A stretch of 64,000 bases of DNA from a virus. Shown in pieces: positions 3,997-53,652 of the stretch. Made by a program: the position numbers and the translations under genes. Below the pieces are notes generated by a model, which made no database searches, had not been told where the DNA came from, and saw only the letters and a program-made list of their open reading frames with translations. The DNA lies in the IMG/VR virus record IMGVR_UViG_3300045131_002121, positions 8,855-72,854 of that record; one strand, given 5' to 3'. How positions within the stretch are numbered: the stretch's first letter is position 1; each line of letters begins with the position of its first letter.

Positions 3997-4746
3997 ATGG
4001 GAATCATTCGCTCAGTTAATAACCCCGCGAATGGGGAGCGCAGGATTCTGCGACGGCGACCCGACTCGGCGGGCCCCGTGGCATCAGCGAACACGGAGAC
4101 CGCGGTTCCCGATGCCACCATGTTGGATCAATGGGAAAACCATGGGATCATCAAGCACGGCGTCCGTGGTGATGGTCGCGTCGTGATCCCACGTTTCCTC
4201 AGTGATCCCGCGTCACCTCAAGAAGGTGATTTCTGGATCCTCTATGACGAGGGTGTGGTATCCCTGCGGTATCGTACCGGGGGTATCACCTATAACTACA
4301 CCGGTGGTAGCGGGAGTTCAGCGGGTTCCCAGTTCTCAGGGATCCCTGATACCGCAGGTCTCCGCAAGGGAGTCGCGGTGAGAACCTCGAGTACGGGCAA
4401 GGTTGGGCTCGCCCGTGCCGGCACGAATTCCGTTGCCGACAATCTCTACGAACCCCTGGGGCTCCTGAGTGCCACAGTTCCTGGATCCCCGAGTACCCCC
4501 GTGGACGACTTCGGTGTTATCCTTCCTGGGCATGTCATCGAGCTCACCCCAGGTGACGCAGGTGAGATCAAGTATCTCACCGGGGTATCTGCGTTGATTC
4601 CGAATCGGGTCTACTACCTCTCCAATATCTCGGGAAAATGGGTACTCAACCCAGACACCGCCGGTTGTGAAGCCGCGGTTCCCCTGTGTCGAGCACTGAC
4701 GACCACAAAGGCCCTCGTTGATTTCAGCATGGCGATCATCCTATGA
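3997..4746 (+). CDS. Probable virion accessory/fibre protein (249 aa)
   Basis: DPASPQEGDFW linker motif plus a C-terminal GLARA...LGL...YYLS...G module seen in phage cement/fibre proteins. Confidence 0.5.
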   Translation: MGIIRSVNNPANGERRILRRRPDSAGPVASANTETAVPDATMLDQWENHGIIKHGVRGDGRVVIPRFLSDPASPQEGDFWILYDEGVVSLRYRTGGITYNYTGGSGSSAGSQFSGIPDTAGLRKGVAVRTSSTGKVGLARAGTNSVADNLYEPLGLLSATVPGSPSTPVDDFGVILPGHVIELTPGDAGEIKYLTGVSALIPNRVYYLSNISGKWVLNPDTAGCEAAVPLCRALTTTKALVDFSMAIIL

Positions 4747-5207
4747 CACTTGATACATTCCTGGCTTCCAATCTTGTTAAAGTTTCTGCGGAGGCGGATT
4801 TGCTTGCCCAGCCCAAACGGGAGCCACTGGAAGTCCACACCCTGCCGCCCCCGAATCCCACTCCAGGAGTAGGCCTCGCGGAATCCCTGGGCATGGGGAT
4901 GCCATGGAAGGGTGCCCTCATCGGTGGCCTTGGTTTAGGTGCCTACAAATACCTGACTGCAAAGAAGGGTGACAAACTGCGGGATACCATGAAGGGGGCC
5001 ATCACTGGCGCCCTTGGTGGTGCGGGTACCGAACTCGGCGCTGGTCTCGGTGGCGAGGTCGCCAGACGTCATGCTCGTTATGGTGAAGGCGGCCCCATGG
5101 CTACCACTGGTATCGCCGCAGGGGGCACCGCAGCTGGCGCCGGCCTCGGTCTGGGTTCCGCGTATCTCCTCAACAAGTTTTTGAGTCGAGATGGTGAGGA
5201 TGAATAA
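4743..5207 (+). CDS. Glycine-zipper membrane protein with K-x-S leader (154 aa)
   Basis: GALIGGLGLGAY, GAITGALGGAG and GAGLGLGSAYLL segments; acidic tail; leader MTLDTFLASNLVKVSA. Confidence 0.65.
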   Translation: MTLDTFLASNLVKVSAEADLLAQPKREPLEVHTLPPPNPTPGVGLAESLGMGMPWKGALIGGLGLGAYKYLTAKKGDKLRDTMKGAITGALGGAGTELGAGLGGEVARRHARYGEGGPMATTGIAAGGTAAGAGLGLGSAYLLNKFLSRDGEDE

Positions 5208-7777
5208 TGGCTACTCAGAAACCACTCTACTTTGATGGTCGCCAGCTCCGCAGGGCTTCCTCTACGAACCCTATTGCGGCGTCGGTCCTGGAATCCACTG
5301 TTGTCACCACCGATGGTCTCCACCCCTTCGTAGCCAATGTCGCGGGTGCAAAGGCTACCGAAGACGCCCACTTGACGACTCGCCTGGTCGTCGACCGCAG
5401 AATCGCGGATGGCTATTGGGGTGGCCCCGTTCAAGCCATCACGAATACACCTCCGGTATCCCCTGGTGCCGAGCAGCGCTGGATCACGGGTACACTCCCC
5501 ACGGGGGACTGGTCTGGGAACCCCAATGCTTTTGCGGCATACCGCGATGGTGTCTGGAAATTCACCTCAGCAGCTGAAGGCGTCTTCGTCTTCAACAGGG
5601 CGACGCACTCCTATGTCCACTACACGGGTTCGGCATGGGCACCCATCCTAGGTACCGGTACGGTGACATCAGTGGGGCTCGCGCTCCCCGCTGAGTTCGA
5701 CGTCACGGTCTCCCCGGTGACCGGTTCTGGAGATCTCACCGCGGGATGGGCGGTTCAGGCCCCCGGGGTTGTCTTCGCGGGTCCCAGTGATCCCCTGGTA
5801 GACCCTGCAGTACCTGGGTTCAGACCTCTAGTTGAAACTGATATTCCCTTTTGTGCCCTCAAGGGGGACGTGGGGTCATCTGGGCTCACCATGACCTCTG
5901 CACGGCTCCTCGGCAGGATCTCCGATGATCCCGGTGCCATCGAGGAGATCTCGATTGGGGACGGTCTGAGTCTATCCGCAGGGCAACTGAGCTGCACTGT
6001 ATCACCTGCGTTGGAAACTGGTCGCGTTGGGTTCGGGGGATCAGACGACATTCTCACGGGGTCTATCTATCTAACCTATGTGAGTGATGGCGACACGGGC
6101 GGATTGGTTATCTCTAATACCACCGCATCGACCAGTACGACTACAGGAGCCCTTGTAGTCACTGGTGGTTTAGGTGTTGGTGGAACCAGCTTTTTTGGGG
6201 GTAGAGTTGATATTTCCTGTATTGGCTCGACACCCCCGGTTTTGACCATTAATCAGAATAGTTACCTAGCCGCCGATGGTGGGGGTAACACCGTTTTACA
6301 CGTCTTTGACCATGAAGACACCCTTCGTGGAAAGGGTATCAGGTACACTGGAGGTTTTGGTGCTACTCGTGCGACTGGCCGCGCTATTTATGTTGCTCCT
6401 TGGCTGACTGTATTTGTTTGCACTGGTATCACAACACCGCCGTCGCGGTACGATAGATACACTGTTAATGGTATCACTTATGCGATAACTACTGTAAATG
6501 GTTCTCTTGTATATGCAGTTCGACTGACCAGTAGCACAGCGCTCCCCCCGGCATCGGGTAAACTTACTCGTACGGTCGGATCCGGCGATGCCGAGATATT
6601 ATACACTGAGGTTTCGCTGATGGAAACTGAAGCCGTGCAGGCATCAGTTATTATTCGGTCGAACGGTGCAATTTCATTTGGTAACATCTGGGAAAATTGG
6701 GGTAATGTATCTATTGGAACCCTGGCGCACCCAGGTTTAGACGCAGCATCTCGCGAGCAGAAAACACTTGGGGTCTATGAAACCACGCAGACAGGTGAGC
6801 CTGACGAGGGCCACCTGTCCGTTTACGGCACAATTCGTCTGCAAGGGATCCAAAGCAAGGATGTTGCCAACGGTATATTGCAGTACAATGCGACAAATAA
6901 GTTCCAGGGGTATTACAACGGACAATGGAACACGTTTCTGACAGGCACTTTTTTTACAAATCGCGTTGCCTACGGCGGGGCGCTTGGAATAACCGATAGT
7001 GCAAACCTAACTTTTGATGGTGCAAATCTCAATGTTACAGGTACAGTAACAGCTATTTCCGCTGATCTTCGAGATGGGTTACAATTGATGGGTCGGGCTG
7101 GTGGAACAGGTTCATATCTCGGAACTTTTATACCAACTACGTTGACAGAATCTCGCACATACACCATGCCGGATAAAGACGGCACTGTGGCGATGACGAG
7201 CGATATAGTTGCTCCGAGTCTTGCAGATACCCAGGTAGGGTTTGGTAGCGGAAGTGATCTTCTTACTGGTTCTGCAAATTTAACATACATTTCGACTCTG
7301 GCTACTGGTGGATTAACAATCTCAAATACTACTGCATCGACCAGCACTACTACTGGTGCTCTTGTTGTTGCCGGAGGCCTCGGTGTCGGCGGTTCAGTCT
7401 ATGCTGGCTCCGATGTCTCCGTAGGTGGAACTCTCATAATCAAGAATGTTAATGAGGCCGTGAACACTATTGGCAACACAGGCACGGGCACGATTACAGT
7501 CAACTGTCTGACCGCAAACCGGGTTACCATGACGGTGACAGGAAACGTAACCCTTGCGTTCACGAATGTCCCCTCCGCGGGCACCGCGAAGACGATGGTT
7601 TTGCACATAACTAATGGGGCTGCATTCACATTTGCGTTCCCGGCTAATACGCGGTGGTCAGGTGGTATCGCCCCTGTTCTCCGATCCTCGGGGCTGGACA
7701 TCATAGGTCTGACCACGATTGATGGGGGAAACACTTGGGATGGAATCCCGATGTCGTTGGATAGTAAGGTACCATGA
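5207..7777 (+). CDS. Tail-fibre-like protein with N-terminal DUF2793-like domain (856 aa)
   Basis: TPPVSPGAEQRWI...PTGDWSG...W.F....G..VF.......Y.GSAW; repeated STSTTTGALVV.GGLGVGG fibre motif; C-terminal W.GG.AP.L..SG.DI domain. Confidence 0.8.
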   Translation: MATQKPLYFDGRQLRRASSTNPIAASVLESTVVTTDGLHPFVANVAGAKATEDAHLTTRLVVDRRIADGYWGGPVQAITNTPPVSPGAEQRWITGTLPTGDWSGNPNAFAAYRDGVWKFTSAAEGVFVFNRATHSYVHYTGSAWAPILGTGTVTSVGLALPAEFDVTVSPVTGSGDLTAGWAVQAPGVVFAGPSDPLVDPAVPGFRPLVETDIPFCALKGDVGSSGLTMTSARLLGRISDDPGAIEEISIGDGLSLSAGQLSCTVSPALETGRVGFGGSDDILTGSIYLTYVSDGDTGGLVISNTTASTSTTTGALVVTGGLGVGGTSFFGGRVDISCIGSTPPVLTINQNSYLAADGGGNTVLHVFDHEDTLRGKGIRYTGGFGATRATGRAIYVAPWLTVFVCTGITTPPSRYDRYTVNGITYAITTVNGSLVYAVRLTSSTALPPASGKLTRTVGSGDAEILYTEVSLMETEAVQASVIIRSNGAISFGNIWENWGNVSIGTLAHPGLDAASREQKTLGVYETTQTGEPDEGHLSVYGTIRLQGIQSKDVANGILQYNATNKFQGYYNGQWNTFLTGTFFTNRVAYGGALGITDSANLTFDGANLNVTGTVTAISADLRDGLQLMGRAGGTGSYLGTFIPTTLTESRTYTMPDKDGTVAMTSDIVAPSLADTQVGFGSGSDLLTGSANLTYISTLATGGLTISNTTASTSTTTGALVVAGGLGVGGSVYAGSDVSVGGTLIIKNVNEAVNTIGNTGTGTITVNCLTANRVTMTVTGNVTLAFTNVPSAGTAKTMVLHITNGAAFTFAFPANTRWSGGIAPVLRSSGLDIIGLTTIDGGNTWDGIPMSLDSKVP

Positions 7778-7778
7778 C

Positions 7779-14191: not shown

Positions 14192-15013
14192 ATGCCTATT
14201 GTCGGTGATGCCAAGAAAGTTCGGAACTCCATGGAAGACACCTACGGCAGTAAGGAAAAGGCCGAACGCGTGTTTTATGCGACTGCGAATAAGCAGAAGC
14301 GTGACCACAAGAACTGGAAGAAGGAGGCCTGGGAGCTCGGCCTTGGAAAGGTGGCTGTGGAGATCCTCCGTGGAGGTGAAGGTGACGGGATCGCCGCTGA
14401 TCAACTCGATCCCCAGGCACTTGCCAAGGGAATGAAAGAAGAGGGGGAGCACACATCCAATCTGGCCCTGCGCAAAGAGATCGCCACTGATCACCTCGCC
14501 AAGGATCGCAAGTATTACGATAAGCTGGAAAAGATGGAGAAGAAGGCGGTTGCACCACCTCCATCGACTCAGCTTCCAGTGGCTAAGCTCCCAGGCCCAG
14601 GGACAGGTGCAACTAGGCCACCGATCCAGAACAGGCCGGTGACATCAACCACGCAGCTTCCCCAGCAACCCCCTGCGCAAAAAGGCGGCGGCCTCCAACT
14701 GATCCCTAATAATGGACCCTGTGATCAAGTTGTACCACCTCAGAATAGATCGAAGACTTTGAAGACTTCGGTGGCCGGTGGGGTCCCCGGGGGTAAGGCA
14801 AGTGTTACGAGCCCAATTGGAGCCCACGCGGCATCGACATCGATGACCACTCCGGTATCGCCTCAAATAGGCTCAGTGGCTCAGCCATTGAAGTCCCCGG
14901 CGAGTCCTGGGTTCTCAGATGACCTCAGTGCATCGCAACCCACCCAGGTGAAGACATCAGTTGAACTCCGCAGACTCGGCGCCTATGCGATCCGGTATCT
15001 CGGAGGCATCTGA
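14192..15013 (+). CDS. Multimodule protein with DUF5661-like domain and Pro-rich tail
   Basis: AGGAG RBS; LAKGMKEEGEHT...KEIATDHL......YYDKLEKME matches the DUF5661 pattern; modules are separated by KEA/KVA/KKA. Confidence 0.7.
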   Translation: MPIVGDAKKVRNSMEDTYGSKEKAERVFYATANKQKRDHKNWKKEAWELGLGKVAVEILRGGEGDGIAADQLDPQALAKGMKEEGEHTSNLALRKEIATDHLAKDRKYYDKLEKMEKKAVAPPPSTQLPVAKLPGPGTGATRPPIQNRPVTSTTQLPQQPPAQKGGGLQLIPNNGPCDQVVPPQNRSKTLKTSVAGGVPGGKASVTSPIGAHAASTSMTTPVSPQIGSVAQPLKSPASPGFSDDLSASQPTQVKTSVELRRLGAYAIRYLGGI

Positions 15014-44502: not shown

Positions 44503-44706
44503 ATGTCGTTATCCAAGTCTGCTTCAGACGTCCTCCTCAAAAAGCTGGCAGCCGCCGAGGAAGTCGATGGCGCCAATGCCGTTGACCTCGGTTTCTACGA
44601 AGCCGCCAGTGGCATGGGCCTCAGCGATGACCAGATCCGCGGTCTCGCCAAGGTTGCCCATGCACGCCTCGACGCCTTCGCTGCTGCACAGGCTGCTCAG
44701 AAGTAA
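44503..44706 (+). CDS. Small helical protein (67 aa) with KSA/KLA/KVA
   Basis: AAGGA RBS before ATG 44503 (MSLSKSASD...), preferred over 44380. Confidence 0.65.
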   Translation: MSLSKSASDVLLKKLAAAEEVDGANAVDLGFYEAASGMGLSDDQIRGLAKVAHARLDAFAAAQAAQK

Positions 44707-44708
44707 TC

Positions 44709-45641
44709 ATGAAGCTCATCGGCGACATCTACGCTAAGAAATACGGGCGCTCCAGGGATATCCATGGAAGCGCTCTGTTCCGTGCGGACTGGCGCTGGGG
44801 CAAGGTCTGCGAGCTCACCGCGATGCGGGAGACCGCAGCCCGAGTCCGTCTCGAAGAGATCAATGATCACGGGGTGACCTCGGCCTACGAGTTCAAGACT
44901 TTCAGGGATCGTGAGATCGATGTTGGTGAAGACTACTCCTGTCTTAAAAACGCCTACACGCTTTTCACGGAATGCCCTGGGTTGAGATCATCCCTTGAAG
45001 CCTATCTGTTATGTTCGGACATCGAAGTCGAGGACATCCTGACCAAGTGGAGTCAAGGTGCCGAGGAGGGTCTCAAGCTAGGCGACATCTATGCCTACGC
45101 GGAGACCTTCTTTGATGTCCGTGGCATCCTGCATAAGCCTGAATGGATCTGCACACTGTTGTTCGGGGACATCCTTGGCCTCATCAGGGACGTCAATAAT
45201 ACCAGCCGACTCGGTGAACACCATCGCGCCGGCTGGCTCCTGGGATCCAAGATCCTGGAGACCTATGTGGACCCCATGGGGCACCTGAAGTCCACGATGC
45301 GGGGTGCCGAGCTCCGAGAAGCCCTGTCATCCCAGATCGAAGAGATCGCGTATCGTCAGACCCTGATCGCCTCGTTCTGCAAGACTCGTGGGGATGAACG
45401 CAGCTTGGAAACCATGAGATCAGTGCTCATGATGATCAAGGATCGTGCTATCCATGCCTTGGGTGGTGCGGGTACCGGGGATTCCAATGCCGATGCCGTC
45501 ATGGCGTTCCTGCAAGACATCCCGTTCTCAGTGGCGAATCCTTCATTGGAAGCCAATAAACAACTCCCGGCTCGGGAGGCTCGTGTTCACGAAATGATTC
45601 GCACTGTGGACGCCACAGTGCTCGAGGAGACCACGGTATGA
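44709..45641 (+). CDS. Hypothetical helical protein (310 aa)
   Basis: Coupled ORF; lacks the K-x-A leader seen in its neighbours. Confidence 0.65.
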   Translation: MKLIGDIYAKKYGRSRDIHGSALFRADWRWGKVCELTAMRETAARVRLEEINDHGVTSAYEFKTFRDREIDVGEDYSCLKNAYTLFTECPGLRSSLEAYLLCSDIEVEDILTKWSQGAEEGLKLGDIYAYAETFFDVRGILHKPEWICTLLFGDILGLIRDVNNTSRLGEHHRAGWLLGSKILETYVDPMGHLKSTMRGAELREALSSQIEEIAYRQTLIASFCKTRGDERSLETMRSVLMMIKDRAIHALGGAGTGDSNADAVMAFLQDIPFSVANPSLEANKQLPAREARVHEMIRTVDATVLEETTV

Positions 45642-47137
45642 GCCTTGAACTCATGGGACCCCGGCGTCACGCCATTCTTATCAAAGCCGCCGAGGCCTGT
45701 GTTGACGGCATGAATGATGGCGCCGCACCCAACGCAGCGCTGCGCAAGGCCGCCCAGGAGTTCGACCTCAACGCAAAAGAGGTCGCCTTGGTCAGTCATG
45801 CCGTCAATAACTCGCGGACCCTCAGTCATCTCGCGAACTCGGAATCCGAGGCCAAAGCGGATCCCTTCCCGTTGACCAACGCTGACGAGGTCACCCAGGA
45901 ACTCTTCCCGGAACCCGATGCTGAGAACAAGAAGCCAGCGAATGGGACGAGGCCAGGGGACTGCCCTGATGTCGAATCCCCGAACAAGTTACCGGGTGCC
46001 AAGAAAACTGCTGCGGAATCCGAAGGCAAAGCGGACCCCGAAGACGTCGATGACTCCTATGAGGAAGACGACGACTTCAAAGATGCCGTCAGTGATGCCG
46101 ACTCCGAAGCCGAGGACGCCGAACTCTTTAAGACTGCACGTGAAGCCTTTGGTATCGATCCCATGGCGCTACGCCGTGGGCGCACCAAGATTGCGTGTGA
46201 CCTCAACGGTCTCGGTGTCAGCGCTGACTTCGGCATGGAAGCCTCGAGGATCCGGGAAGCCCTGGACACCGGACTCCATGGTGTGGACTGCTCCCGTCTC
46301 GCCGACAACCCCTTTATCAAACTTCAGAACCTGAAGGCTGCCGCGGAAGCCGCGAGAACCAAGTTCTCCGAGCACCGTGATGCCGCCTTTGTCAAACTTG
46401 CTCGAATCATTGAATCCTTTGCTCGCATTGATTCCCCGGCGTTCTCCCGTGTGGAGACCCTGGCGAAACGTGCTGGTGTGGATCCCGCAACCCTGGATGT
46501 CATCTGGGTCACAGGCAGCCTCGAGAACCGGGGTCACCACAGGGCGACCCCAGCGATGAAGATCGCCAGTGATGTCATCGCTACGTGCTCACCTCGTGAG
46601 AAAGCGGTCGTCGACTCAGTCTCGACTCTGGAGACTTTGTGGAAACACGCCTCGCACTGCCTCGCCGCCAAGAATGAAGTCGATCGCAGACTCGCCGAAG
46701 CCGGTCCCTGGGTAGCCAAGATAGCTGAGGACGTCGGTGGCTACGTCAAGAATATCTCGGATACCGCGACATCACTGCCACAGGATGCCATGGGGGGTGA
46801 AAAACTCGAAGCCGTGGTTGGCGGTGCGCTTGGGAATCGTGGCAGCGGGGAATCCCCGGATTATGGAGTCTCCCCTAAGTCCCCTCTGGGTGCCGGGGGC
46901 CAACAGCGACTCAAGAACACGGGTGCCGCGGTTTCCCTGGCATCTCTGATGGATGACCCCTACATTGCACAGCGACCCATTCCAGAAACTGTTAAAGCCT
47001 TCAATGCTGTGATGTCCACGCATCCCGATGCCGACGCATCCATGATGCGCAGACTTGTCAAGGATCAGCTCGCCAGTGGTGGTGACCTCGACACCGACGT
47101 CATGATACGCCTCCAGAAAAACCGCGCAAAGGGCTGA
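45638..47137 (+). CDS. Probable head/core protein (499 aa) with acidic linker and many K-x-A sites
   Basis: KAA, KTA x2, KIA x3, KLA and KHA; GAGGAG upstream. Confidence 0.6.
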   Translation: MSLELMGPRRHAILIKAAEACVDGMNDGAAPNAALRKAAQEFDLNAKEVALVSHAVNNSRTLSHLANSESEAKADPFPLTNADEVTQELFPEPDAENKKPANGTRPGDCPDVESPNKLPGAKKTAAESEGKADPEDVDDSYEEDDDFKDAVSDADSEAEDAELFKTAREAFGIDPMALRRGRTKIACDLNGLGVSADFGMEASRIREALDTGLHGVDCSRLADNPFIKLQNLKAAAEAARTKFSEHRDAAFVKLARIIESFARIDSPAFSRVETLAKRAGVDPATLDVIWVTGSLENRGHHRATPAMKIASDVIATCSPREKAVVDSVSTLETLWKHASHCLAAKNEVDRRLAEAGPWVAKIAEDVGGYVKNISDTATSLPQDAMGGEKLEAVVGGALGNRGSGESPDYGVSPKSPLGAGGQQRLKNTGAAVSLASLMDDPYIAQRPIPETVKAFNAVMSTHPDADASMMRRLVKDQLASGGDLDTDVMIRLQKNRAKG

Positions 47138-47141: not shown

Positions 47142-48176
47142 ATGGTAACTCGTGCTGACCACGATGCCTTTGCTAAACAGGCCGCCGAAGCCGTGTACCC
47201 GGTCTCTGATGACGAAGAGGACGAGGACGACGACAAGGGTTGGGGGGCCAAGGAATGGCTTACCCTGGCCCTGGCCAGTGGTACCCTCGCCGCAGGTCTC
47301 GGCGCCGCCTACGTGTATCGCAAGGATATCGACAAGGCACTTGGTGGCCGCATATTTGGAGACAATCGTGAGAAGGTGAATGCTTGGCTTCAGGACAACC
47401 TACCCGGGGGTTACGGAGCCTTCGGTCTAGGTGCCGGTGCTGGTGTCGCGCATAGCATGGTGCCCGCACTAAAAAGGTTGCCCGGTGGGGTGGATCACAA
47501 CATCCAAACCACAGGAGGGCTCGTAAACAAACTTAATCAAGGCGGAGATGCCGCTGAACCCCACCTACGCGCCATGGGTTCACATGCTGCAATTACTGAT
47601 GATAAAGGAAAAATCAAAGATCCCCTGGATTCCGGTAGGGCACTACATACGTTTACCACAGGCGCCACGGTTGACCCCCGCCATCCCCTGGCGATCCTAA
47701 ATCACCAGGATCTATTTAATAAGCCTACTCTATTAAATGAGATCATCCAAGGCACTGCTAAGGGGGAGTTGATTGAAGACCCTAGCAAGAAGTCCTTTGT
47801 CAGGCGTGTGTTTGGAGGCAACAGCGACCCCGCTGCAGCTACCCGGCTGAAGAATGTCAACGCACTAAATGAGCACATGGCGGCGGCGCAACGTAAAATC
47901 GAAGCTAATAAGGCTAATGCAGCTACGGCTAATCCAGGGGCACCAATTCAGCTGACCCAGCAGGAAGACGCAGCTGATAAATTGCATAACAGGATTAAAG
48001 GGAATCTGGGGGCAAAATCGGTAAACGTACCCGGTATAGTCACTGGTGTGGAAGCCGCCAAGCGGATTGGAACCCCAGCCACGCTGGCGGGCACCGCGGG
48101 AAGGGCGCTTACGTACGGTACATTGGCATCACTAGGGTCGATGCTGGCAGAGAAGTGGCTCGGGGGTCCCAAGTGA
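47142..48176 (+). CDS. Membrane protein with KQA leader, acidic patch and TM segments (344 aa)
   Basis: FAKQAA, DDEEDEDDD, WLTLALASGTLAAGLGAAYVYRK; N-terminal architecture like ORF 23102. Confidence 0.65.
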   Translation: MVTRADHDAFAKQAAEAVYPVSDDEEDEDDDKGWGAKEWLTLALASGTLAAGLGAAYVYRKDIDKALGGRIFGDNREKVNAWLQDNLPGGYGAFGLGAGAGVAHSMVPALKRLPGGVDHNIQTTGGLVNKLNQGGDAAEPHLRAMGSHAAITDDKGKIKDPLDSGRALHTFTTGATVDPRHPLAILNHQDLFNKPTLLNEIIQGTAKGELIEDPSKKSFVRRVFGGNSDPAAATRLKNVNALNEHMAAAQRKIEANKANAATANPGAPIQLTQQEDAADKLHNRIKGNLGAKSVNVPGIVTGVEAAKRIGTPATLAGTAGRALTYGTLASLGSMLAEKWLGGPK

Positions 48177-49573
48177 TCGCCAAGATTCTTTCTCCGCACA
48201 CCTATGATTTCCAGGCCCCTGAGGTGACCCTGGTGAGATTCTCGAGTCGTGGGTTCGACAAAGAGTTGTTCATGAAGACGGCGAAGGAGGCCGGTGGTCT
48301 CCTGTTCCAGAAGGAACTCGCCGAGATGAAGCCGATCCCGGGGAAGACCATTATACACACCATCGCGGTTGGTGATGAAGAACGCTATGGCGACAACCGC
48401 AACAACGATGGCTTCAGCGAAAAAGACAACAAGACTTGTCATACCAGATTTAAGACGCATGGGCATGTCTTCAAGAACCATGACAACGATGACCCCGATA
48501 AGAAAACGGGCGACATCTTGCTCACCGGTCATAATGGACCCATGTCTCGTATCGAGTTGATCTCAGCACTCGACAACGAGAAAAACGCTGACGAAGTCCA
48601 GGCTCTCGAAGAAGGCAAGGATGTCCCGGTGTCCATGGGGTCCATGCAGGCCTACGACGTCTGCTCGGCATGTGGACACAAGGCACCTGAGGCCAAGGAC
48701 CACTGTGAGCACATCAAGCACATGCTTGGTGAGATCACCAAGGATGGTCAAAAAGTTTACATGAAAAATCCGAATCCATATTACATGGATCTCTCCACGG
48801 TATGGAAACCCGCTGACCGCATTGGTTATACTTTGCGGAAGGTTGCCCTGGAACGCCCAGGAGTCCCTGGTTTTGAGGTCGCCATGCAGACCTCGATGCG
48901 GAAGCTGAACTCCTCGAAGTATGCGATGATGATGCGCCTGGCCACCATTGAGAAGCGCATCGGTGGACTCGCCCAACTCGCCGATATCGGGCCGGAACCC
49001 AAGGATCTCGACCTCGAGACCCGCAAGGAGATCAAGAAAGCATTCGAGGCCCATGGGGTCCCCGCGATGCTGAACTGGCTCCACAAGCGTGGATGCGTCC
49101 TCGGTATCCGAGACTTCGCTGACTTCGTGGTCGACATCCCCATGGCATCGATCTCCCCAGATGTTCACCTCGCCCATGATCTCGCTGTTAAACAAGGTTT
49201 TCATGGTCTCCTGAAATCAGCGGTAGAAATCAACTCTTTAGATGGCGTCGAATCCACGACCCCGATTCGTCTTGAGGACGATGTCATGGGCTCCCTGGAT
49301 TACGCGACATCGATGCGCGGAGATCACCCGGCTCGTCGGGTTCTCCACGCCACAATCTCCGGTCAGCCGAATGTGAAGTTGGCCGGTGCTGGTCGTGCTC
49401 CTGATGTCACGGCGAGTAGGGGTCTTGCTGATCTCTATCTTCACTACAAAGTAGCTTTCGCCGTGCATCCCAATAACCACGCAGATGAAGCCACGCTCGG
49501 AGCCCTCGTTCAGGGCATGGCCTTGTCGAGGCGCGCAACCCCGTTACCATCACCCTTGTCACCAAGGAAGTAG
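48173..49573 (+). CDS. Probable prohead maturation protease (HK97/assemblin-like Ser protease) with Zn-ribbon insertion
   Basis: NNDGF, HVFKNH (His), VSMGS (Ser), CSACGH...CEH and DLSTVWKPAD; upstream of scaffold and capsid genes; GTG start overlaps the upstream stop. Confidence 0.75.
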   Translation: MIAKILSPHTYDFQAPEVTLVRFSSRGFDKELFMKTAKEAGGLLFQKELAEMKPIPGKTIIHTIAVGDEERYGDNRNNDGFSEKDNKTCHTRFKTHGHVFKNHDNDDPDKKTGDILLTGHNGPMSRIELISALDNEKNADEVQALEEGKDVPVSMGSMQAYDVCSACGHKAPEAKDHCEHIKHMLGEITKDGQKVYMKNPNPYYMDLSTVWKPADRIGYTLRKVALERPGVPGFEVAMQTSMRKLNSSKYAMMMRLATIEKRIGGLAQLADIGPEPKDLDLETRKEIKKAFEAHGVPAMLNWLHKRGCVLGIRDFADFVVDIPMASISPDVHLAHDLAVKQGFHGLLKSAVEINSLDGVESTTPIRLEDDVMGSLDYATSMRGDHPARRVLHATISGQPNVKLAGAGRAPDVTASRGLADLYLHYKVAFAVHPNNHADEATLGALVQGMALSRRATPLPSPLSPRK

Positions 49574-49575
49574 CT

Positions 49576-51096
49576 ATGACTCAAAAGACACAGCGCACGA
49601 TCATGGAGGATTTAGACCTCATGATCAAACGCGCCTCCGAAGTCCCCACCGAAGGCCTCGCCAAATCCGCGAGCCCCGCTGATCCCCTGGACAGCGATAA
49701 CGGCACTGAAGCCGTGAAAAAAGGTGAACAATACAACCAGAACATCGAAGAGGCCGGTAAGCATACCGCTGCCAAGGTCGATGGCGGCGCCGTGGCCAAT
49801 AAGCCCGGTGCAAGTGTCGAAGCCTCCACAGAGGGTGCCACCGCGGTGTCCACTGATGGCCAAGAAGGCGGCAAAGGTGCCGACCTCGAAGTCAAAGGTG
49901 AAGCCGACAATGGTCCCGTACCCCAGAGCGAACTCTCGAAGTCCGCTGCTGAGTACATCTCAACTGGACGCAAGATTTCTGCTTATCTGAAAGCCGCTGC
50001 TGAAAGAGCACCGGTTGATGCCAATGCAGCTGCGGCCCAACAGAAGGTTGCCAGTATTCTGGGAAAATCCAACGGTCAGCCTGAAGCCGCCAAGCCCCTG
50101 ACCGGCATGAGCGCATACATCGCGAAAAAGGCGATGGAAGCCGCAGGCGGCGGAGATGCCGCTGCAGGTGCTGCCGCCATCCCTGGTGGCGAACAAGGTG
50201 CCGCGCAAGCCGGAGCCCAAGAGCTCATGGCGGCTCTCCAAAATGGTGAGATCGACGACGCCCAAGCCGAACAGATCCTTCAGGAAGCCGCGCGTAGCGG
50301 TGCATTGTCCCCTGAAGACCTCCAAGAACTCCAAGCCTTAGCTGAACAAATGGGTGGAGAAGCCGGTGCTGGTGGTGGTGATCCCGCTGCTGGACTCCAT
50401 CCTGGCGGTGACGCCGGGGCTCCCCCCGAGGATGCCATGGGTGGCGCGGGTCCCGCAGGTGCACTTCCCCCCGGCGGCGACGCCGGTGGTGAACTCGCCC
50501 CCGAAGACCTCCAGGCCATGAAAACTGCTGCGTTGGATGTGACCCCCGGTCACCCCGACTACCCCCAGAAGCTCCGTGTGCTCCACAAAGCCGCCCATGC
50601 TTTTGGTTTCAATTTGGCGATCAAGACTGCTCAGGAACTCGAAGAAGCCGCAAAGCATGAAGCCGGCGAAGGCGAAGGCCACGAGGGCTCCGAGGGTTCC
50701 AAGGCTGAGGAAGGCGAGAAGGAAGGCGACTCCGCTGCGCACGAGCAAGGCGAGACCCCTGCCCAAGAAAACGCCGAACATCTCCCCGGTGGTGAAGAAG
50801 CCGGTATCCCCGGTGGTGCCCCCGGCGCAGGTATCCCTGGTGCAGCCCCCACGGGTTCCCCCGTTGGTGGCGACCCCATGGCTGGACTCGAAGCCAAGAC
50901 CCCTGAGGAACAAGCAGCTCTGATGCAAGTTCTCCAGGAAATGGGACTCGACCCCCAGGCCCTGCAGCAGCTCCAAGCCGCACCGATGCCCGCGATGGAC
51001 AAAATCGCGAGTTACAAGGCGCGGGTCAGTGCCGCGATCTTCAAGAAGGCCGCTGCTATCCAAATCGCGCAAACCTCCACCAACAAGAAAGCCTGA
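49576..51096 (+). CDS. Probable scaffolding/core protein (506 aa), acidic and low-complexity
   Basis: Between protease and capsid genes; Ala/Gly/Glu-rich; about nine K-x-A sites. Confidence 0.6.
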   Translation: MTQKTQRTIMEDLDLMIKRASEVPTEGLAKSASPADPLDSDNGTEAVKKGEQYNQNIEEAGKHTAAKVDGGAVANKPGASVEASTEGATAVSTDGQEGGKGADLEVKGEADNGPVPQSELSKSAAEYISTGRKISAYLKAAAERAPVDANAAAAQQKVASILGKSNGQPEAAKPLTGMSAYIAKKAMEAAGGGDAAAGAAAIPGGEQGAAQAGAQELMAALQNGEIDDAQAEQILQEAARSGALSPEDLQELQALAEQMGGEAGAGGGDPAAGLHPGGDAGAPPEDAMGGAGPAGALPPGGDAGGELAPEDLQAMKTAALDVTPGHPDYPQKLRVLHKAAHAFGFNLAIKTAQELEEAAKHEAGEGEGHEGSEGSKAEEGEKEGDSAAHEQGETPAQENAEHLPGGEEAGIPGGAPGAGIPGAAPTGSPVGGDPMAGLEAKTPEEQAALMQVLQEMGLDPQALQQLQAAPMPAMDKIASYKARVSAAIFKKAAAIQIAQTSTNKKA

Positions 51097-51100
51097 TCCC

Positions 51101-51538
51101 ATGACTGGCAATGAGCTCAAGAAAGTTGCGAGCACTATCGATGGTCTCGCCTCCACCCTGGAACAAGCCCAGGGTATCATCCAAAAACAAGCCAGTGAAA
51201 ACGCAGCCCTCAAGGCTCAGCTTTCCCTGGCGCAGAAAACGCAAAAGACTGCCAGCGAAGCCGACCAGGCCAAGACGGCAAATCTGCGTGGACTCGCCAA
51301 GCGTGCCGCTGCAACCCTGTTGCAAACCGGCATGATCTCGAGTCCCGAGCGTGCCGAAGCATTTGCCAACGAAGTCATGGATCACTCCAAGGCTGTCACG
51401 GCATTGCAAAAGTTTGCTGAAGTCGCCAGCCGTGCCCCGAAGACTGCCAGCGTCGTCGAGGACCCCGAAGCCCAAGTCGAGTCCTCGGACGCGGTCTGGG
51501 ATCGTCATGCCCGTCAGCATATCCCCTCAGGCAACTGA
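51101..51538 (+). CDS. Coiled-coil head assembly protein (145 aa)
   Basis: ATG 51101 follows the upstream stop; KVAS, KQAS, KTAS x2 and KRAA. Confidence 0.65.
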   Translation: MTGNELKKVASTIDGLASTLEQAQGIIQKQASENAALKAQLSLAQKTQKTASEADQAKTANLRGLAKRAAATLLQTGMISSPERAEAFANEVMDHSKAVTALQKFAEVASRAPKTASVVEDPEAQVESSDAVWDRHARQHIPSGN

Positions 51539-51600
51539 ACCTGTCTGAATCACCGGGACAATAGTCCCCTTCACACGTCTTCACCAAAGGAAGATTAACC

Positions 51601-52212: not shown

Positions 52213-52254
52213 GCTCGGTAGCCTCCAACCACAAACCAACAAGGAATTGAGACC

Positions 52255-53193
52255 ATGAGTCAGAAAAAGCTGTCCGCGGCCCAGTCCAATGCTGCATTCT
52301 TCGGTATGCTCGAAAAGGGCCATATCAAAGCCGCAGCGGATATGGTGACCGACTTCACCCGCGTTCGCATCCGTGAATCCTCGTTCTTCGAGAAGATTCT
52401 GCCAGCGATCAAGATTGGGGATGACGAACTCACCCCACAACTCAGCAATGACAAGAACGTCAAGCTGGTCGAACGCGAACCCAATTCACCCGCTGCCATC
52501 ACGATCCCCTTGGGTCAGCAGCCCATCCAATACTACTTCCGTGGCGATCGCTACCCGGTCTTCTTCGACCGTATCGTGACCCATAAGTTCACCAAGGATA
52601 CCTCGGAACTCCGTACCTACGGTATGGACATCCGCCAGGTCATCTCGGACAACGCCATCCTCGACATGGATTTCGAGTTCGACCGCAAGATGCTGTCGGC
52701 TTGCCAAGCCATCGTCGGACCTCAGGGCGGTATCGTTCCTGAAACCGGCATCGTCCAAAACGTCAAGATCGTTGATCCCGCGGGCATCACCCGTAACTCG
52801 TTGTTCGAGATCAAAAAGATCCTGCCACGTACTTTCGCTCACTTGGACGGTGTGACCATCCTGGTCAACAACATCACCATCCATGACGTCAGTAAGTTCA
52901 CCCGTGACGAAGCCGGTGGCGACCTGTCGCAAGACATGTTGGTCGACGGCTTCCAACAGAAGAAACTGATTGGTTGCAACTGGGTTGTCACCAACAAAAC
53001 TGAACTCGTCGCTGAGTCCAGCTTCTGGGTGTTCGCTTCCCCCGAGTTCCTGGGCAAGTCCTATGTCCTCGAAGACACCACGATGTACGTCGACAAGCGC
53101 GCGTACAACCTGGAGTTCTTTGCTTACGCCGAACGTGGCGCCACCATCGCCAACCCCGCCGCGGTCGCCCTGGTGACCATTTCGCAGAACTGA
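52255..53193 (+). CDS. Major capsid protein (HK97-like fold, 312 aa)
   Basis: RIRESSFFEKILP, E-loop-like region, D.EFDRKML helix, C-terminal F.AY...G..IANP.AV; strongest codon bias; AAGGA RBS; followed by a terminator. Confidence 0.8.
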   Translation: MSQKKLSAAQSNAAFFGMLEKGHIKAAADMVTDFTRVRIRESSFFEKILPAIKIGDDELTPQLSNDKNVKLVEREPNSPAAITIPLGQQPIQYYFRGDRYPVFFDRIVTHKFTKDTSELRTYGMDIRQVISDNAILDMDFEFDRKMLSACQAIVGPQGGIVPETGIVQNVKIVDPAGITRNSLFEIKKILPRTFAHLDGVTILVNNITIHDVSKFTRDEAGGDLSQDMLVDGFQQKKLIGCNWVVTNKTELVAESSFWVFASPEFLGKSYVLEDTTMYVDKRAYNLEFFAYAERGATIANPAAVALVTISQN

Positions 53194-53257: not shown

Positions 53258-53277
53258 GGCAGCCTACCCACCCCGAC

Positions 53278-53305
53278 TTGTTCGGGGGATTTTCAAGCCT
53301 ATCCT
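53278..53305 (+). promoter_or_regulatory. Putative promoter TTGTTC-N16-TATCCT
   Basis: Directly after the terminator and before the GGAG RBS of 53323. Confidence 0.45.
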
Positions 53306-53322
53306 ATCGCATCGGAGCACCC

Positions 53323-53652
53323 ATGAAATCCCGCGAATTACTCTTCCGGGTTGCACGGAAAATTGCAGCCCACACCGACACCCCTGTTAAACCCCGGAGT
53401 GGCACCAATGCGCCGCCGCCACCCCAGCAGCCTACCCAGCCCGACACCAACGCCAAGGGTAAGATCACTCCTGCGATGGGCAATCCCAAAGCTGGCAAAA
53501 ATAAGAAGAAAGCGGGAATCGTAAATAAATTCCTGGAAAAAACCGCAGCACAGTTCAAGGCAGCTGCACCTCGCCCAGGCCGTCTCGATGGCGACATCGC
53601 GTTGACCAAGTTGGCGAGTCGTCACAAGTCTGCTAAGAAGTCCGCAAAATGA
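53323..53652 (+). CDS. Small basic protein (109 aa) with KIA leader; possible DNA-binding core protein
   Basis: GGAG RBS before ATG 53323; Lys-rich; KIA, KKA, KTA, KLA and KSA. Confidence 0.6.
   Translation: MKSRELLFRVARKIAAHTDTPVKPRSGTNAPPPPQQPTQPDTNAKGKITPAMGNPKAGKNKKKAGIVNKFLEKTAAQFKAAAPRPGRLDGDIALTKLASRHKSAKKSAK

What the first reader, a model, noticed from the sequence alone, without database searches (positions are those of the whole stretch)
4743..53652. K-x-A leader peptides: a candidate capsid-targeting/maturation code shared by unrelated head-module proteins
Seen: otherwise unrelated ORFs begin with a short hydrophobic or amphipathic leader ending in K-x-A(/S), with the Lys at residue 12-18. 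Examples: MTLDTFLASNLV-KVS (4743), MSPSKIMLFYLTR-KVA (17097), MRATQLLALAIV-KHA (35327), MDISARLFQRGLNEFAQ-KRA (36866), MLTPAQALHFLCS-KVA (37841), MSLSKSASDVLLK-KLA (44503), MSLELMGPRRHAILI-KAA (45638), MVTRADHDAFA-KQA (47142), MTQKTQRTIMEDLDLMI-KRA (49576), MKSRELLFRVAR-KIA (53323). The next residue is mostly A or S. Fibre proteins and most genes after 54 kb lack such leaders. Known: T4 internal proteins carry a ~10-aa capsid-targeting sequence removed by gp21, and T4 gp21/phiKZ gp175 cut many head proteins after short Glu-ending motifs. Inference: this phage uses a Lys-x-Ala version of that system, read by the protease at 48173. I do not know of a description of this specificity.
Basis: partly seen in the sequence, partly recalled or inferred. 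Interest (0 to 1): 0.9.

Follow-up and report, generated by a model that had tools for sequence, protein, structure and literature searches.

The report
Lys-x-Ala head-protease code, jumbo phage
Many unrelated head proteins of this uncultured giant phage and its relatives carry a short Lys-x-Ala tag, most likely the cutting signal of their capsid-maturation protease, so the processed head proteins could be predicted from sequence; cutting itself has not been measured.

Summary
All ten leaders are at the stated coordinates. K-x-A[AS] with Lys at residue 12-18 occurs in 7 of 47 ORFs against 0.81 expected.

The signal repeats in independent DNA. K.A is the most over-represented of all 400 gapped dipeptides in 55 of 73 distinct head-module loci of related jumbo phages. 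Pooled, it occurs 4036 times against 2159 expected. Reversed, Arg-substituted and other-spacing controls are flat.

Protein families are bimodal: K-x-A lies in the first 45 residues of nearly all members or almost none. In a complete 191.5-kb relative the excess is confined to the head block.

The protease at 48173 has the T4 gp21/herpes assemblin fold (Z 10.6). It carries invariant K-x-A sites before and just after its catalytic domain (19 of 19 each).

The fuller motif is [LFM]-x-K-x-A-[SA], with D/E at +4 in this phage. It also occurs internally, densely in scaffold-like proteins.

Cleavage, the scissile bond (my guess: after Ala) and capsid targeting are inferred, not shown. Four searches of the held library found no description. 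Earlier notes of this scan describe other protease codes in other jumbo phages, but not this one among those retrieved.

The parts
48173..49573 (+). Prohead protease, 466 aa. Catalytic domain spans about residues 40-217, followed by a helical C-terminal domain. Own K-x-A sites at K35, K223, K249, K402 and K426.
   Evidence: phrog_18299 head maturation protease, E 8.5e-8. AF2 model pLDDT 78, with low confidence at 216-243 and 400-407. VIA Z 10.6 to T4 gp21 5jbl, rmsd 3.2 over 142 residues, and Z 9.3 and 8.7 to herpes proteases. H103 and S154 are invariant. Site conservation: 19/19, 19/19, 17/19, 15/19 (within 6 columns) and 17/19.
52255..53193 (+). Major capsid protein, 312 aa, HK97 fold. The N-terminal leader ends at K25-A-A27 (nt 52255-52335).
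   Evidence: The A2 profile hits phage G gp27 capsid protein 6wkk_A, E 3.6e-8. phrog_2522 major head protein matches 8 of 18 members. Foldseek E 3e-10 to D3 and HK97 capsids. A27 is invariant and K25 is at least 90% conserved. K-x-A at residue 24-31 in every orthologue listed except L003, whose called ORF begins at window residue 49; in the clustering, K-x-A lies in the first 45 residues of 26 of 27 unique members.
49576..51096 (+). Ala-rich scaffold-like protein, 506 aa. Leader ends at K18-R-A20 (nt 49576-49635). It has 14 K-x-A sites in all.
   Evidence: 14 sites against 6.6 expected. The leader is conserved in the G002 homologue and positional counterparts in L006 and L029 carry similar leaders. 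8 of 14 sites are kept in the same columns in G002.
51101..51538 (+). Small helical protein, 145 aa, with 7 K-x-A sites, the first at K8.
   Evidence: 7 against 2.1 expected. Counterparts in relatives carry 9-10 sites at other positions.
45638..47137 (+). Conserved head-module protein, 499 aa, with K16-A-A and the family-conserved K37-A-A. It has 13 K-x-A sites in all.
   Evidence: 13 against 4.6 expected. 57 of 59 family members have K-x-A in the first 45 residues. K-[VSAIT]-A at about residue 31-39 is present in all 39 distant (L003-L080) orthologues listed.
47142..47183 (+). Leader of the 344-aa ORF 47142-48176, ending K12-Q-A14-A-E.
   Evidence: No BLAST homologue in G002, but the gene at the same position there starts with a K-Q-A at residue 5.
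44503..44550 (+). Leader of the 67-aa ORF 44503-44706 (K5-S-A and K14-L-A16-A).
   Evidence: K-L-A-A is conserved in the G002 homologue.
53323..53367 (+). Leader of the 109-aa ORF 53323-53652 (K13-I-A15). The ORF has 7 K-x-A sites.
   Evidence: 7 against 2.8 expected. No distant homologue found.
37841..37888 (+). Leader of the 428-aa ORF 37841-39127 (K14-V-A-A-E). A second S-K-V-A-A site lies at K103.
   Evidence: The only distant hit (G002) is partial and its called ORF has no such leader.
36866..36925 (+). Leader of the 251-aa ORF 36866-37621 (K18-R-A20-F-V).
   Evidence: All 3 K-x-A sites are kept in the same columns in the G002 homologue.
35327..35371 (+). Leader of the 506-aa Gly-zipper protein 35327-36847 (K13-H-A-A-D).
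   Evidence: A weak G002 hit (a Gly-rich 139-aa protein) also starts with K-L-A leaders.
17097..17144 (+). Leader of the 367-aa ORF 17097-18200 (K14-V-A-A-S).
   Evidence: No homologue found in G002.
4743..4787 (+). Leader of the 154-aa ORF 4743-5207 (K13-V-S-A-E). This is the Ser variant and the weakest example.
   Evidence: No homologue found. Ser at this position is only 1.25-fold enriched family-wide.
42213..44468 (+). Conserved 751-aa protein next to the RNA polymerase gene, with 9 internal K-x-A sites. Function unknown.
   Evidence: 9 against 3.6 expected. Homologues in 71 distant loci. No PHROG or Pfam match.
15013..17100 (+). NUDIX plus HAD hydrolase two-domain protein, 695 aa, with 9 K-x-A sites, several near domain borders.
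   Evidence: Pfam NUDIX 151-239 and HAD 377-513. Sites at 107, 254, 281, 364 and 506. 9 against 4.4 expected.
20250..23105 (+). Probable portal protein, 951 aa, with an intein-like insert.
   Evidence: phrog_64 portal protein, E 2.5e-4. Intein_splicing 139-426, below Pfam's cut-off. The G002 homologue is 623 aa and aligns only outside the insert.
30773..35299 (+). RNA polymerase beta fused to the N-terminal part of beta' (1508 aa), inside the virion module. Has K6-G-A8.
   Evidence: Pfam Rpb2 domains 3 and 6 and Rpb1 domains 1 and 2. 15 K-x-A against 9.4 expected.
39127..42183 (+). RNA polymerase beta' C-terminal part with a LAGLIDADG/Hint intein (1018 aa). No N-terminal K-x-A leader.
   Evidence: Pfam Rpb1 domain 5, LAGLIDADG_3 and Hom_end_hint. 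(14 of 55 family members have K-x-A in the first 45 residues).

Best explanation
The window is the virion module of an uncultured jumbo phage. Near-identical protease genes lie on 216-kb and 172-kb contigs.

Its prohead protease (48173-49573) is a serine protease of the T4 gp21/herpesvirus assemblin fold. It most likely recognises the short motif [Leu/Phe/Met]-x-Lys-x-Ala-[Ser/Ala], with Asp/Glu often following in this phage.

Proposed sequence of events inside the prohead (inferred):
1. The protease trims N-terminal propeptides of about 12-27 residues from the major capsid protein and from a set of otherwise unrelated head proteins.
2. It releases its own catalytic domain by cutting at K35 and K223.
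3. It chops the Ala-rich scaffold-like proteins (49576, 51101, 53323, 45638) at many redundant sites.

This is what T4 gp21 and phiKZ gp175 do at Glu-ending motifs. I infer that the cut falls after the Ala (P3 Lys, P1 Ala, P1' Ser/Ala). The characterised enzymes of this fold that I looked at (T4 gp21, phiKZ gp175/SPN3US gp245, herpesvirus assemblins) read a P3-x-P1 pattern, and herpesvirus assemblins cut after Ala.

Shown here: the motif, its specificity, its conservation in position, its restriction to the head module, and the protease fold. Inferred: that the protease reads the motif, where it cuts, and that the leaders also serve to load proteins into the capsid.
For: 1. Motif specificity in the window, from 300 within-protein shuffles.
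- K.A 162 against 116.3 (z 4.7).
- K.[AS][AS][ED] 24 against 3.7 (z 10.8).
- K.[AS].E 39 against 9.8 (z 9.2).
- Controls are flat: R.[AS][AS] 29 against 30.1, [AS][AS].K 21 against 32.1, A.K z 1.3.

2. Independent replication. The loci were chosen by protease homology, not by motif.
- K.A ranks first of 400 gapped dipeptides in 55 of 73 distinct loci, within the top 3 in 64 and the top 10 in 70.
- In 1071 unique proteins K.A occurs 4036 times against 2159 expected (z 40.4), [LFM].K.A is 4.29-fold and [LFM].K.A[SA] 8.26-fold.
- Arg in place of Lys gives 0.74-fold ([LFM].R.A). Ser or Gly in place of Ala gives 1.25 and 1.20-fold ([LFM].K.S, [LFM].K.G), or 1.40 and 0.76-fold (K.S[SA], K.G[SA]).
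- Other spacings give z -2.5, 4.6 and -1.7 for gaps 0, 2 and 3.

3. Module restriction.
- Window: 139 against 97.3 expected inside 13027-53652, and 11 against 11.7 upstream.
- Complete relative G002: the head block of 21 genes has 93 against 54.2, and 13 of 21 genes have an N-terminal K-x-A. The other 212 genes have 286 against 269.8, and 34 of 212. Fisher p 1.2e-5.

4. Positional conservation.
- Families are bimodal for K-x-A in the first 45 residues. High group: 58/63, 57/59, 34/34, 26/27, 23/25, 13/13, 14/14. Low group: 3/46, 1/34, 0/32, 2/28, 0/23.
- The capsid-protein site is kept at 25-50% identity.

5. Link to the protease.
- Fold: Z 10.6 to T4 gp21 and 9.3 to VZV protease.
- K35-x-A and K223-x-A are each kept in 19 of 19 homologues at 26-57% identity.
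- K223 lies in a stretch with pLDDT under 50 directly after the catalytic domain. This resembles the herpes release site YLQA-T that ends assemblin (PMC4498786, passages).

6. Cultured relatives show the same excess: Salmonella phage Arash 57 against 31.7, rank 1, with capsid protein K27-E-A; phage G rank 3; Catera rank 2.

7. Control: phiKZ head proteins show no K.A excess (36 against 28.2, rank 42).
Against: - No cleavage has been measured in any member of this family.
- The only virion proteome I found is for phage Arash (PMC10585845, passages and part of Table 2). It reports 100% sequence coverage for three leader-bearing proteins (gp221, gp223, gp224) and 95.8% for gp220. That is not expected if the leaders were fully cut after Ala and lost. 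However, the preparation listed 116 proteins, including ribonucleotide reductases, so precursors may have been present. Peptide-level data would be in supplements that I could not open. The capsid protein's 86.6% coverage fits either reading.
- Phage G's capsid protein has no K-x-A. It has A-L-A at the homologous place, and the deposited chain has 280 of 282 residues. That N-terminal segment is therefore not a disposable leader in every relative.
- Individual sites turn over: 2 of 9 and 1 of 7 sites are kept in the same columns between the window and G002 for 42213 and 51101.
- K.A is not depleted in the tail-side genes (12 against 6.7 expected).
- The window alone fails a blind maximum-z test (255 of 500 shuffles).
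- Pfam finds no protease family in the 48173 protein.
- Only Lys and Ala are conserved. The strong D/E at +4 in this phage (0.35 against 0.12) leaves open a cut after the acidic residue.
Confidence: 0.7

Rival explanations
1. K-x-A is the protease's cutting motif, and the N-terminal leaders also act as capsid-targeting sequences. Like the 10-residue T4 CTS, they would dock cargo onto the scaffold core and then be removed.
For: Unrelated proteins share a short N-terminal leader ending in the motif. The window's leaders are hydrophobic or amphipathic. T4 is the precedent: the first 10 residues of IPIII suffice for packaging and are removed by gp21 (PMC9026906, passages).
Against: Family-wide, N-terminal sites show the same core as internal sites, with only a weak extra hydrophobic preference at -10 (0.40 against 0.29). 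No common targeting helix is therefore evident. The RNA polymerase beta'C protein has no such leader here, although the RNA polymerase subunits are abundant in Arash virion preparations. Nothing tests loading.
Confidence: 0.35
2. The enzyme cuts after the acidic residue, as T4 and phiKZ proteases do. The true site would then be A-x-[E/D] with Lys as an upstream (P5) determinant, and K-x-A would be only its left half.
For: In this phage K.[AS].E is seen 39 times against 9.8 and K.[AS][AS][ED] 24 times against 3.7. D/E at +4 is 0.35 against 0.12. A-x-E matches the SPN3US and phiKZ motif (PMC10052503, passages).
Against: The acidic residue is not conserved at the invariant protease sites. Glu at +4 is present in 3 of 19 sequences at K35 and 7 of 19 at K223. 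D/E at +4 is only 0.20 in the more distant relatives. [SAG].E without Lys is not enriched: 1.00-fold in the family and z 0.6 in the window.
Confidence: 0.15
3. K-x-A is a docking or modification motif that is not cleaved. For example, it could be a contact point for the scaffold or core, or a target for a lysine-modifying enzyme.
For: The reported 100% MS coverage of three leader-bearing Arash proteins is compatible with uncut sites. Lys is a usual target of modification (general knowledge).
Against: The two invariant protease sites bracket the catalytic domain, and one lies in a predicted disordered linker. That is the pattern of autoprocessing in T4 gp21, phiKZ gp175 and herpes assemblin. 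The dense, positionally fluid sites in scaffold-like proteins match the redundancy described for phiKZ propeptides. I did not look for a lysine-modifying enzyme in the module.
Confidence: 0.1
4. The pattern is a by-product of composition: Ala- and Lys-rich helical proteins, with no function attached.
For: The densest proteins are Ala-rich (20.8% Ala in 49576). The window alone does not pass a blind maximum-z test.
Against: Expectations were computed per protein from its own composition. Reversed, other-spacing and Arg controls are flat. The motif ranks first in 55 of 73 distinct loci. Sites are invariant in non-Ala-rich proteins such as the protease and the capsid protein.
Confidence: 0.03

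Closest known systems
Phage T4 head maturation: gp21 protease with capsid-targeting sequences (CTS) and propeptides
   Same: The protease fold is the same (Z 10.6 to 5jbl). A two-residue code separated by one free position marks the capsid protein, the scaffold and unrelated internal proteins. Short N-terminal leaders end in the site. The protease carries candidate sites of its own (PMC9026906, passages).
   Different: T4 reads L/I-x-E and cuts after Glu. Here [LIV].E is 1.12-fold and [SAG].E 1.00-fold, while K.A is the top pair. Pfam finds no S77-type family in the protein. Cleavage and targeting are experimentally shown in T4 and only inferred here.
phiKZ gp175 and SPN3US gp245 proteases of giant phages with virion RNA polymerase
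   Same: Both are jumbo phages with multisubunit RNA polymerase genes among the head genes. Many head proteins carry redundant sites in their propeptides, and the protease is processed at its C-terminal side (PMC9026906 and PMC10052503, passages).
   Different: Their motif is S/A/G-x-E or A-x-E, cut after Glu. phiKZ head proteins show no K.A excess (36 against 28.2, rank 42). phiKZ-type phages were not among the 229 tblastn hits of the protease. The RNA polymerase is partitioned differently here, as a beta plus beta'N fusion.
Herpesvirus assemblin (pUL26 and homologues) with release and maturation sites
   Same: The fold is shared (VZV Z 9.3, PRV 8.7, HCMV about 6.5). Assemblin cuts after Ala with Ser or Thr next: PRV sites YLQA-T and VQA-S, as predicted in PMC4498786 (passages). 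The site directly after the catalytic domain precedes a C-terminal helical part, as the R-site precedes the scaffold part.
   Different: Lys at P3 is not part of the herpes sites quoted. Sequence identity is 5-12%. The cut after Ala is my inference here. Herpesviruses do not use N-terminal leaders on many proteins (recalled, not checked).
Cultured relatives carrying the same protease family: Salmonella phage Arash, Bacillus phage G, cluster C mycobacteriophages (Catera), Vibrio phages D181, D148 and D69
   Same: tblastn identity to the protease is 29-32%. K.A excess is present near the protease gene in Arash (rank 1), phage G (rank 3) and Catera (rank 2). Arash has the same RNA polymerase, protease, capsid-gene neighbourhood and a K27-E-A capsid leader.
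   Different: None is close: megablast of 8 kb found nothing. Phage G's capsid protein has lost the site. Catera's protease domain heads a 1369-aa protein. None of the papers I could read on these phages mentions the motif.

Membership tests
Assemblin-fold prohead serine proteases (T4 gp21, herpesvirus assemblin) | Shared three-dimensional fold of the catalytic domain | tested here: met
   The AF2 model (pLDDT 78) aligns to T4 gp21 5jbl_A with Z 10.6, rmsd 3.2 over 142 of 165 residues. It aligns to VZV, PRV and HSV proteases with Z 9.3, 8.7 and 7.0. Foldseek alone was weak (probability 0.69, E 0.22).
Assemblin-fold prohead serine proteases (T4 gp21, herpesvirus assemblin) | Catalytic Ser and His conserved and placed as in gp21 | tested here: inconclusive
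   S154 (in V-S-M-G-S) and H103 are invariant in 19 homologues. No residue-level superposition on gp21 was available.
Assemblin-fold prohead serine proteases (T4 gp21, herpesvirus assemblin) | Gene sits in the head module next to scaffold and capsid genes | tested here: met
   The order protease, scaffold-like ORFs, HK97-fold capsid protein is seen. Homologues of the RNA polymerase beta'C, 42213, 45638 and capsid proteins lie within 10 kb of the protease gene in 63, 71, 42 and 32 distant loci.
T4 gp21 / Pfam Peptidase_S77 sequence family | Significant sequence match to the family profile | tested here: not met
   No Pfam family at E up to 0.01. Only phrog_18299 and phrog_2774 matched.
Glu-specific giant-phage protease codes (T4 L/I-x-E; phiKZ/SPN3US S/A/G-x-E) | Substrates marked by x-E motifs, enriched in head proteins | tested here: not met
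   [SAG].E occurs 5381 times against 5371 expected and [LIV].E 4375 against 3924 in 1071 proteins. In the window [SAG].E has z 0.6. One caution: the same test detects phiKZ's own motif only weakly (S.E z 2.5, A.E z 0.2).
Capsid-targeting sequence (CTS) systems | Short N-terminal peptide ending in the protease site on otherwise unrelated proteins | tested here: met
   Ten or more ORFs in the window. At least 16 protein clusters have the site in 90-100% of members. 13 of 21 head-block genes against 34 of 212 others in G002.
Capsid-targeting sequence (CTS) systems | The leader is necessary and sufficient for packaging and is removed in the head | not testable with these tools
   This needs virion proteomics or fusion-protein packaging in a cultured member.
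HK97-fold major capsid proteins with N-terminal propeptide | HK97 fold | tested here: met
   Foldseek E 3.1e-10 to the D3 capsid and about 1e-9 to HK97 prohead II, probability 1.00. The profile hits phage G gp27, E 3.6e-8.

The most novel reading that the evidence does not exclude
A large, mostly uncultured clade of jumbo phages has a head-maturation protease of the gp21/assemblin fold whose specificity has shifted from Glu-ending sites to Lys-x-Ala. The clade has 374 relatives in IMG/VR and reaches to Salmonella phage Arash, Bacillus phage G and cluster C mycobacteriophages. The cut would fall after Ala, as in herpesviruses. The motif then acts as a readable code: it marks the processed and packaged head proteome, including enzymes such as a NUDIX-HAD protein, and its N-terminal version is a portable loading tag for capsid cargo.
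Probability: 0.3. Interest if true: 0.8.

Novelty: new variant of a known kind. Interest (0 to 1): 0.68.

Why it matters
Prohead-protease codes are known in detail for only a few phages: T4, phiKZ, 201phi2-1 and SPN3US, all Glu-ending.

If K-x-A is confirmed as a cleavage code, three things would follow.
- One could read, from sequence alone, which proteins of hundreds of uncultured jumbo phages are processed in the head and probably injected. These include the partners of a virion RNA polymerase.
- It would document a large shift in specificity within one protease fold, and would link phage enzymes to the Ala-specific herpesvirus assemblins.
- It would offer a candidate tag for loading foreign proteins into capsids of cultured members such as Arash, as the T4 CTS does.

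It is directly testable, because cultured relatives exist and one of them already has virion MS data.

Tried and rejected
- Megablast of window 45000-53000 against deposited phages found no match.
- PHROGs and Pfam gave nothing for most head-module ORFs.
- phmmer of the protease against PDB sequences gave only a chance hit.
I used the search for related loci instead, as that tool's message advised going on with other tools.
- My first alternative was that K-x-A is just the left half of a phiKZ-type A-x-E site. I downgraded it when Glu proved unconserved at the invariant protease sites and [SAG].E showed no excess.
- The genome search with the 37841 protein in five related records gave one weak partial match. 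The fast-evolving upstream leader proteins (4743, 17097, 37841, 53323) could therefore not be tested for conservation.
- The Arash coverage arithmetic for the capsid protein is uninformative. The 41 uncovered residues match either the N-terminal tryptic peptides or the 42 residues lying in very short peptides.
- Complex prediction (protease residues 40-222 with the capsid protein N-terminus 1-60) returned 'no answer', score 0.01 against a mark of 0.32. It counts neither for nor against.
- A blind maximum-z scan of the window's N-termini was not significant.
- Paper PMC7316594 (phage G structure) is not held, so I could not check what it says about processing.
- Supplements are closed, so peptide-level Arash data were not seen.
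- Literature searches for a prior description found none in the held library. Subscription papers are not covered.

Full report
WHAT THE WINDOW IS

The 64-kb window is bases 8855-72854 of a single 72,854-bp virus record. All of my 47 ORFs lie on the + strand. Identified genes:
- a prohead protease, 48173-49573 (phrog_18299, E 8.5e-8);
- an HK97-fold major capsid protein, 52255-53193. The profile hits phage G gp27, E 3.6e-8; phrog_2522 matches 8 of 18 members; Foldseek E 3e-10;
- a probable portal with an intein-like insert, 20250-23105;
- a multisubunit RNA polymerase split into a beta plus beta'N fusion (30773-35299) and an intein-bearing beta'C (39127-42183).

Protease genes 96-97% identical lie on IMG/VR contigs of 216 and 172 kb. 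The phage is therefore a jumbo phage, and the record is a fragment.

THE OBSERVATION

- K.[AS] with Lys at residue 12-18 occurs in 12 of 47 ORFs against 3.27 expected. K.A[AS] occurs in 7 against 0.81.
- In residues 2-35, K.A occurs 22 times against 8.7 expected, and 0 of 2000 shuffles reach this.
- A blind maximum-z scan over 1600 pair/gap combinations was matched in 255 of 500 shuffles. The window alone would not establish the motif without a prior hypothesis.

THE MOTIF IS WIDER THAN THE LEADERS

With 300 within-protein shuffles:
- K.A is 162 against 116.3 (z 4.7);
- K.[AS][AS] is 61 against 32.6;
- K.[AS][AS][ED] is 24 against 3.7 (z 10.8);
- K.[AS].E is 39 against 9.8.

The controls show nothing: Arg version 29 against 30.1, reversed version 21 against 32.1, A.K z 1.3, and [SAG].E alone z 0.6.

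Sites pile up in particular ORFs: 49576 (14 against 6.6 expected), 45638 (13 against 4.6), the protease (10 against 3.3), 42213 (9 against 3.6), 15013 (9 against 4.4), 51101 (7 against 2.1) and 53323 (7 against 2.8).

None of the 58 K.[AS].[ED] sites lies in the nine ORFs from 53649 on. K.A sites outside 13027-53652 show no preference at +3 or +4 (0.17 and 0.04). Inside that region the values are S/A 0.35 and D/E 0.35.

INDEPENDENT REPLICATION

The protease has 99 homologues in the protein collection, many on contigs of 160-215 kb, and 374 relatives in IMG/VR. I fetched 21-kb loci around 80 of them. These were chosen by protease similarity only (28-97% identity).

I ranked all 400 gapped dipeptides a.b against per-protein composition.
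- K.A is first in 55 of 73 distinct loci, in the top 3 in 64 and in the top 10 in 70. The worst ranks are 13, 19 and 230.
- In 1071 unique proteins K.A is 4036 against 2159 (z 40.4), the top pair. L.K is second.
- The extended forms are stronger: [LFM].K.A 1281 against 299, and [LFM].K.A[SA] 462 against 56.
- Substitutions abolish the signal: [LFM].R.A 0.74-fold, [LFM].K.S 1.25, [LFM].K.G 1.20, K.G[SA] 0.76.
- Other spacings are flat: gap 0 z -2.5, gap 2 z 4.6, gap 3 z -1.7; A.K -3.3.
- The logo is [F/L/M] at -2, E/V/T/I at -1, S/A at +3 and D/E/A at +4.
- As a control, phiKZ head proteins show no K.A excess (36 against 28.2, rank 42).

POSITIONAL CONSERVATION

I clustered the proteins of the loci. 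The families are bimodal for K-x-A within the first 45 residues.
- High group: protease 58/63, the 45638 family 57/59, an unnamed family 34/34, capsid protein 26/27, then 23/25, 13/13, 14/14, 13/13, 12/12 and several smaller ones at 100%.
- Low group: 3/46, 1/34, 0/32, 2/28, 0/23, 1/19.

The capsid protein's leader ends in K-x-A at residue 24-31 in every orthologue listed (25-50% identity) except L003, whose called ORF begins at window residue 49. A27 is invariant.

N-terminal bins 5-40 are 1.5-2.3-fold richer in K.A than the already elevated average, and controls are not.

- The leader site is kept in the homologues of 36866, 44503, 45638 and 49576.
- The weak hit for 35327 also has K-L-A leaders.
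- The partial hit for 37841 does not.
- 4743, 17097, 47142 and 53323 have no detectable homologue. The gene at the position of 47142 in G002 also starts with a K-Q-A leader.

GENOME-WIDE CONTROL

In G002 (233 called genes) the excess is confined to the head block. There, 21 genes have K.A 93 against 54.2, and 13 have an N-terminal site. The other 212 genes have 286 against 269.8, and 34 have an N-terminal site. Fisher p 1.2e-5. Further leader-bearing genes lie in the first 17 kb of that record. Homologues of the window's ORFs 14192-29571 map to G002 coordinates 202-15,800, so this stretch corresponds to the window's upstream leader genes.

LINK TO THE PROTEASE

The AF2 model (pLDDT 78) aligns to T4 gp21 with Z 10.6 (rmsd 3.2, 142 residues). 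It aligns to herpesvirus proteases with Z 9.3, 8.7, 7.0 and about 6.5. Foldseek alone was weak. H103 and S154 are invariant.

K-x-A conservation in 19 homologues at 26-57% identity:
- K35: 19 of 19;
- K223: 19 of 19;
- K249: 17 of 19;
- K426: 17 of 19;
- K402: 15 of 19, within 6 columns.

K223 and K402 fall in stretches with pLDDT under 50. K223 lies directly after the catalytic domain and before a helical C-terminal domain.

This is the layout of autoprocessing enzymes of this fold. T4 gp21 and phiKZ gp175 are trimmed (PMC9026906, passages). Herpes pUL26 releases assemblin at a site just after the protease domain (PMC4498786, passages).

WHERE THE CUT FALLS (INFERENCE)

Only Lys and Ala are conserved, one residue apart. 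T4 reads L/I-x-E, and phiKZ and SPN3US read S/A/G-x-E or A-x-E. The PRV assemblin sites are given as YLQA-T and VQA-S.

All of these are P3-x-P1 patterns, and the herpes enzymes take Ala at P1 with Ser or Thr at P1'. By analogy I read the motif as P5 [LFM], P3 Lys, P1 Ala, P1' Ser/Ala, with P2' Asp/Glu in this phage.

A cut after the acidic residue is the main alternative for this lineage. It is weakened by the lack of conservation of Glu: 3 of 19 sequences at K35 and 7 of 19 at K223. A cut after Lys cannot be excluded.

EVIDENCE AGAINST, AND GAPS

No cleavage data exist for this family. The Arash paper does not contain the words 'protease' or 'cleav'. It reports RNA polymerase subunits among the most abundant virion-preparation proteins. 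It also reports 100% coverage for gp221, gp223 and gp224, which all carry N-terminal K-x-A.

Complete removal of the leaders would not give that result. But the preparation listed 116 proteins, including metabolic enzymes, and I could not see peptide-level data because supplements are closed. The capsid protein's 86.6% coverage is uninformative.

Other points against:
- Phage G's capsid protein lacks the site.
- Sites in scaffold-like proteins turn over between relatives. This fits redundancy, but it also means that single sites are weak evidence.
- N-terminal and internal sites share one core, and I saw no separate targeting feature.
- Complex prediction gave no verdict.

COMPARISON AND NOVELTY

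The system works like T4 gp21 with its CTS and propeptides, and like phiKZ/SPN3US head maturation. The protease belongs to the same fold. The code, however, is different.

Searches of the held literature found no description of it (and the phage G and Arash papers). Earlier notes of this scan describe other lineage-specific protease codes in other jumbo phages: Glu-ending ones, a basic-x-aromatic-small one, and a hydrophobic-small-x-small one. None of the eight notes shown was K-x-A. I did not test those notes.

I therefore class the finding as a new variant of a known kind. It is of good interest because cultured members exist and make it directly testable.

Noticed in passing
window 15013-17100: A 695-aa protein joins a NUDIX domain (151-239) and a HAD hydrolase domain (377-513). 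K-x-A sites lie near the domain borders (107, 254, 281, 364, 506). It may be a head-packaged two-enzyme protein that is cut apart. Only 3 of its 9 sites are kept in the same columns in the G002 homologue.
   Followed up: partly
window 20250-23105; 39127-42183; protease homologues P0046, P0050, P0058, P0064, P0079: Inteins recur in the virion module. There is a LAGLIDADG/Hint intein in RNA polymerase beta'C. The probable portal has an intein-like insert of about 320 aa (951 aa against 623 aa in G002). Several relatives' protease genes carry intein domains (PF14890, PF14528).
   Followed up: partly
window 30773-35299 and 39127-42183; L083 (Arash gp216): A multisubunit RNA polymerase is encoded inside the head module, as a beta plus beta'N fusion and a separate beta'C. 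The beta'C gene lies within 10 kb of the protease gene in 63 distant loci. In phage Arash the beta and beta' subunits are among the most abundant proteins of virion preparations (paper passages), which suggests a virion-packaged polymerase.
   Followed up: partly
L081 (phage G gp27) against window 52255-53193: Phage G's capsid protein has no K-x-A at all. It reads A-L-A where this family has K-E-A, although other phage G head proteins (portal, protease, gp9, gp11, gp20, gp21) carry N-terminal K-x-A. This looks like loss of the capsid-protein site in that lineage.
   Followed up: partly
L082 (Catera gp94): In cluster C mycobacteriophages the protease domain is the N-terminal part of a 1369-aa protein with 18 K-x-A sites (8.2 expected). 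This may be a protease-scaffold or cargo fusion.
   Followed up: no
window 52255-53193 against 48173-49573, compared with G002: The capsid protein is 78% identical to that of G002, while the protease is 43% and the 45638 protein 29% identical. This points to very uneven divergence, or to exchange within the head module.
   Followed up: no
G002 139298-140245 (L091/L092): A 315-aa + strand gene far from the head block has 14 K-x-A sites (4.1 expected) and an N-terminal K-T-A at residue 20. It may be a further substrate or scaffold-like protein encoded elsewhere.
   Followed up: no
window 37841-39127: The same S-K-V-A-A pentapeptide occurs at residues 13-17 and 102-106. Another first-reader note reported this as a cassette boundary. 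If K-x-A is a cut site, an 89-residue piece would be released.
   Followed up: no
L025, L042, L047 and similar loci (29-31% protease identity): L.N is repeatedly among the top three gapped dipeptides in one sub-clade (pooled 1505 against 1085 expected). It may be a second motif, or an extension of the code in that branch.
   Followed up: no
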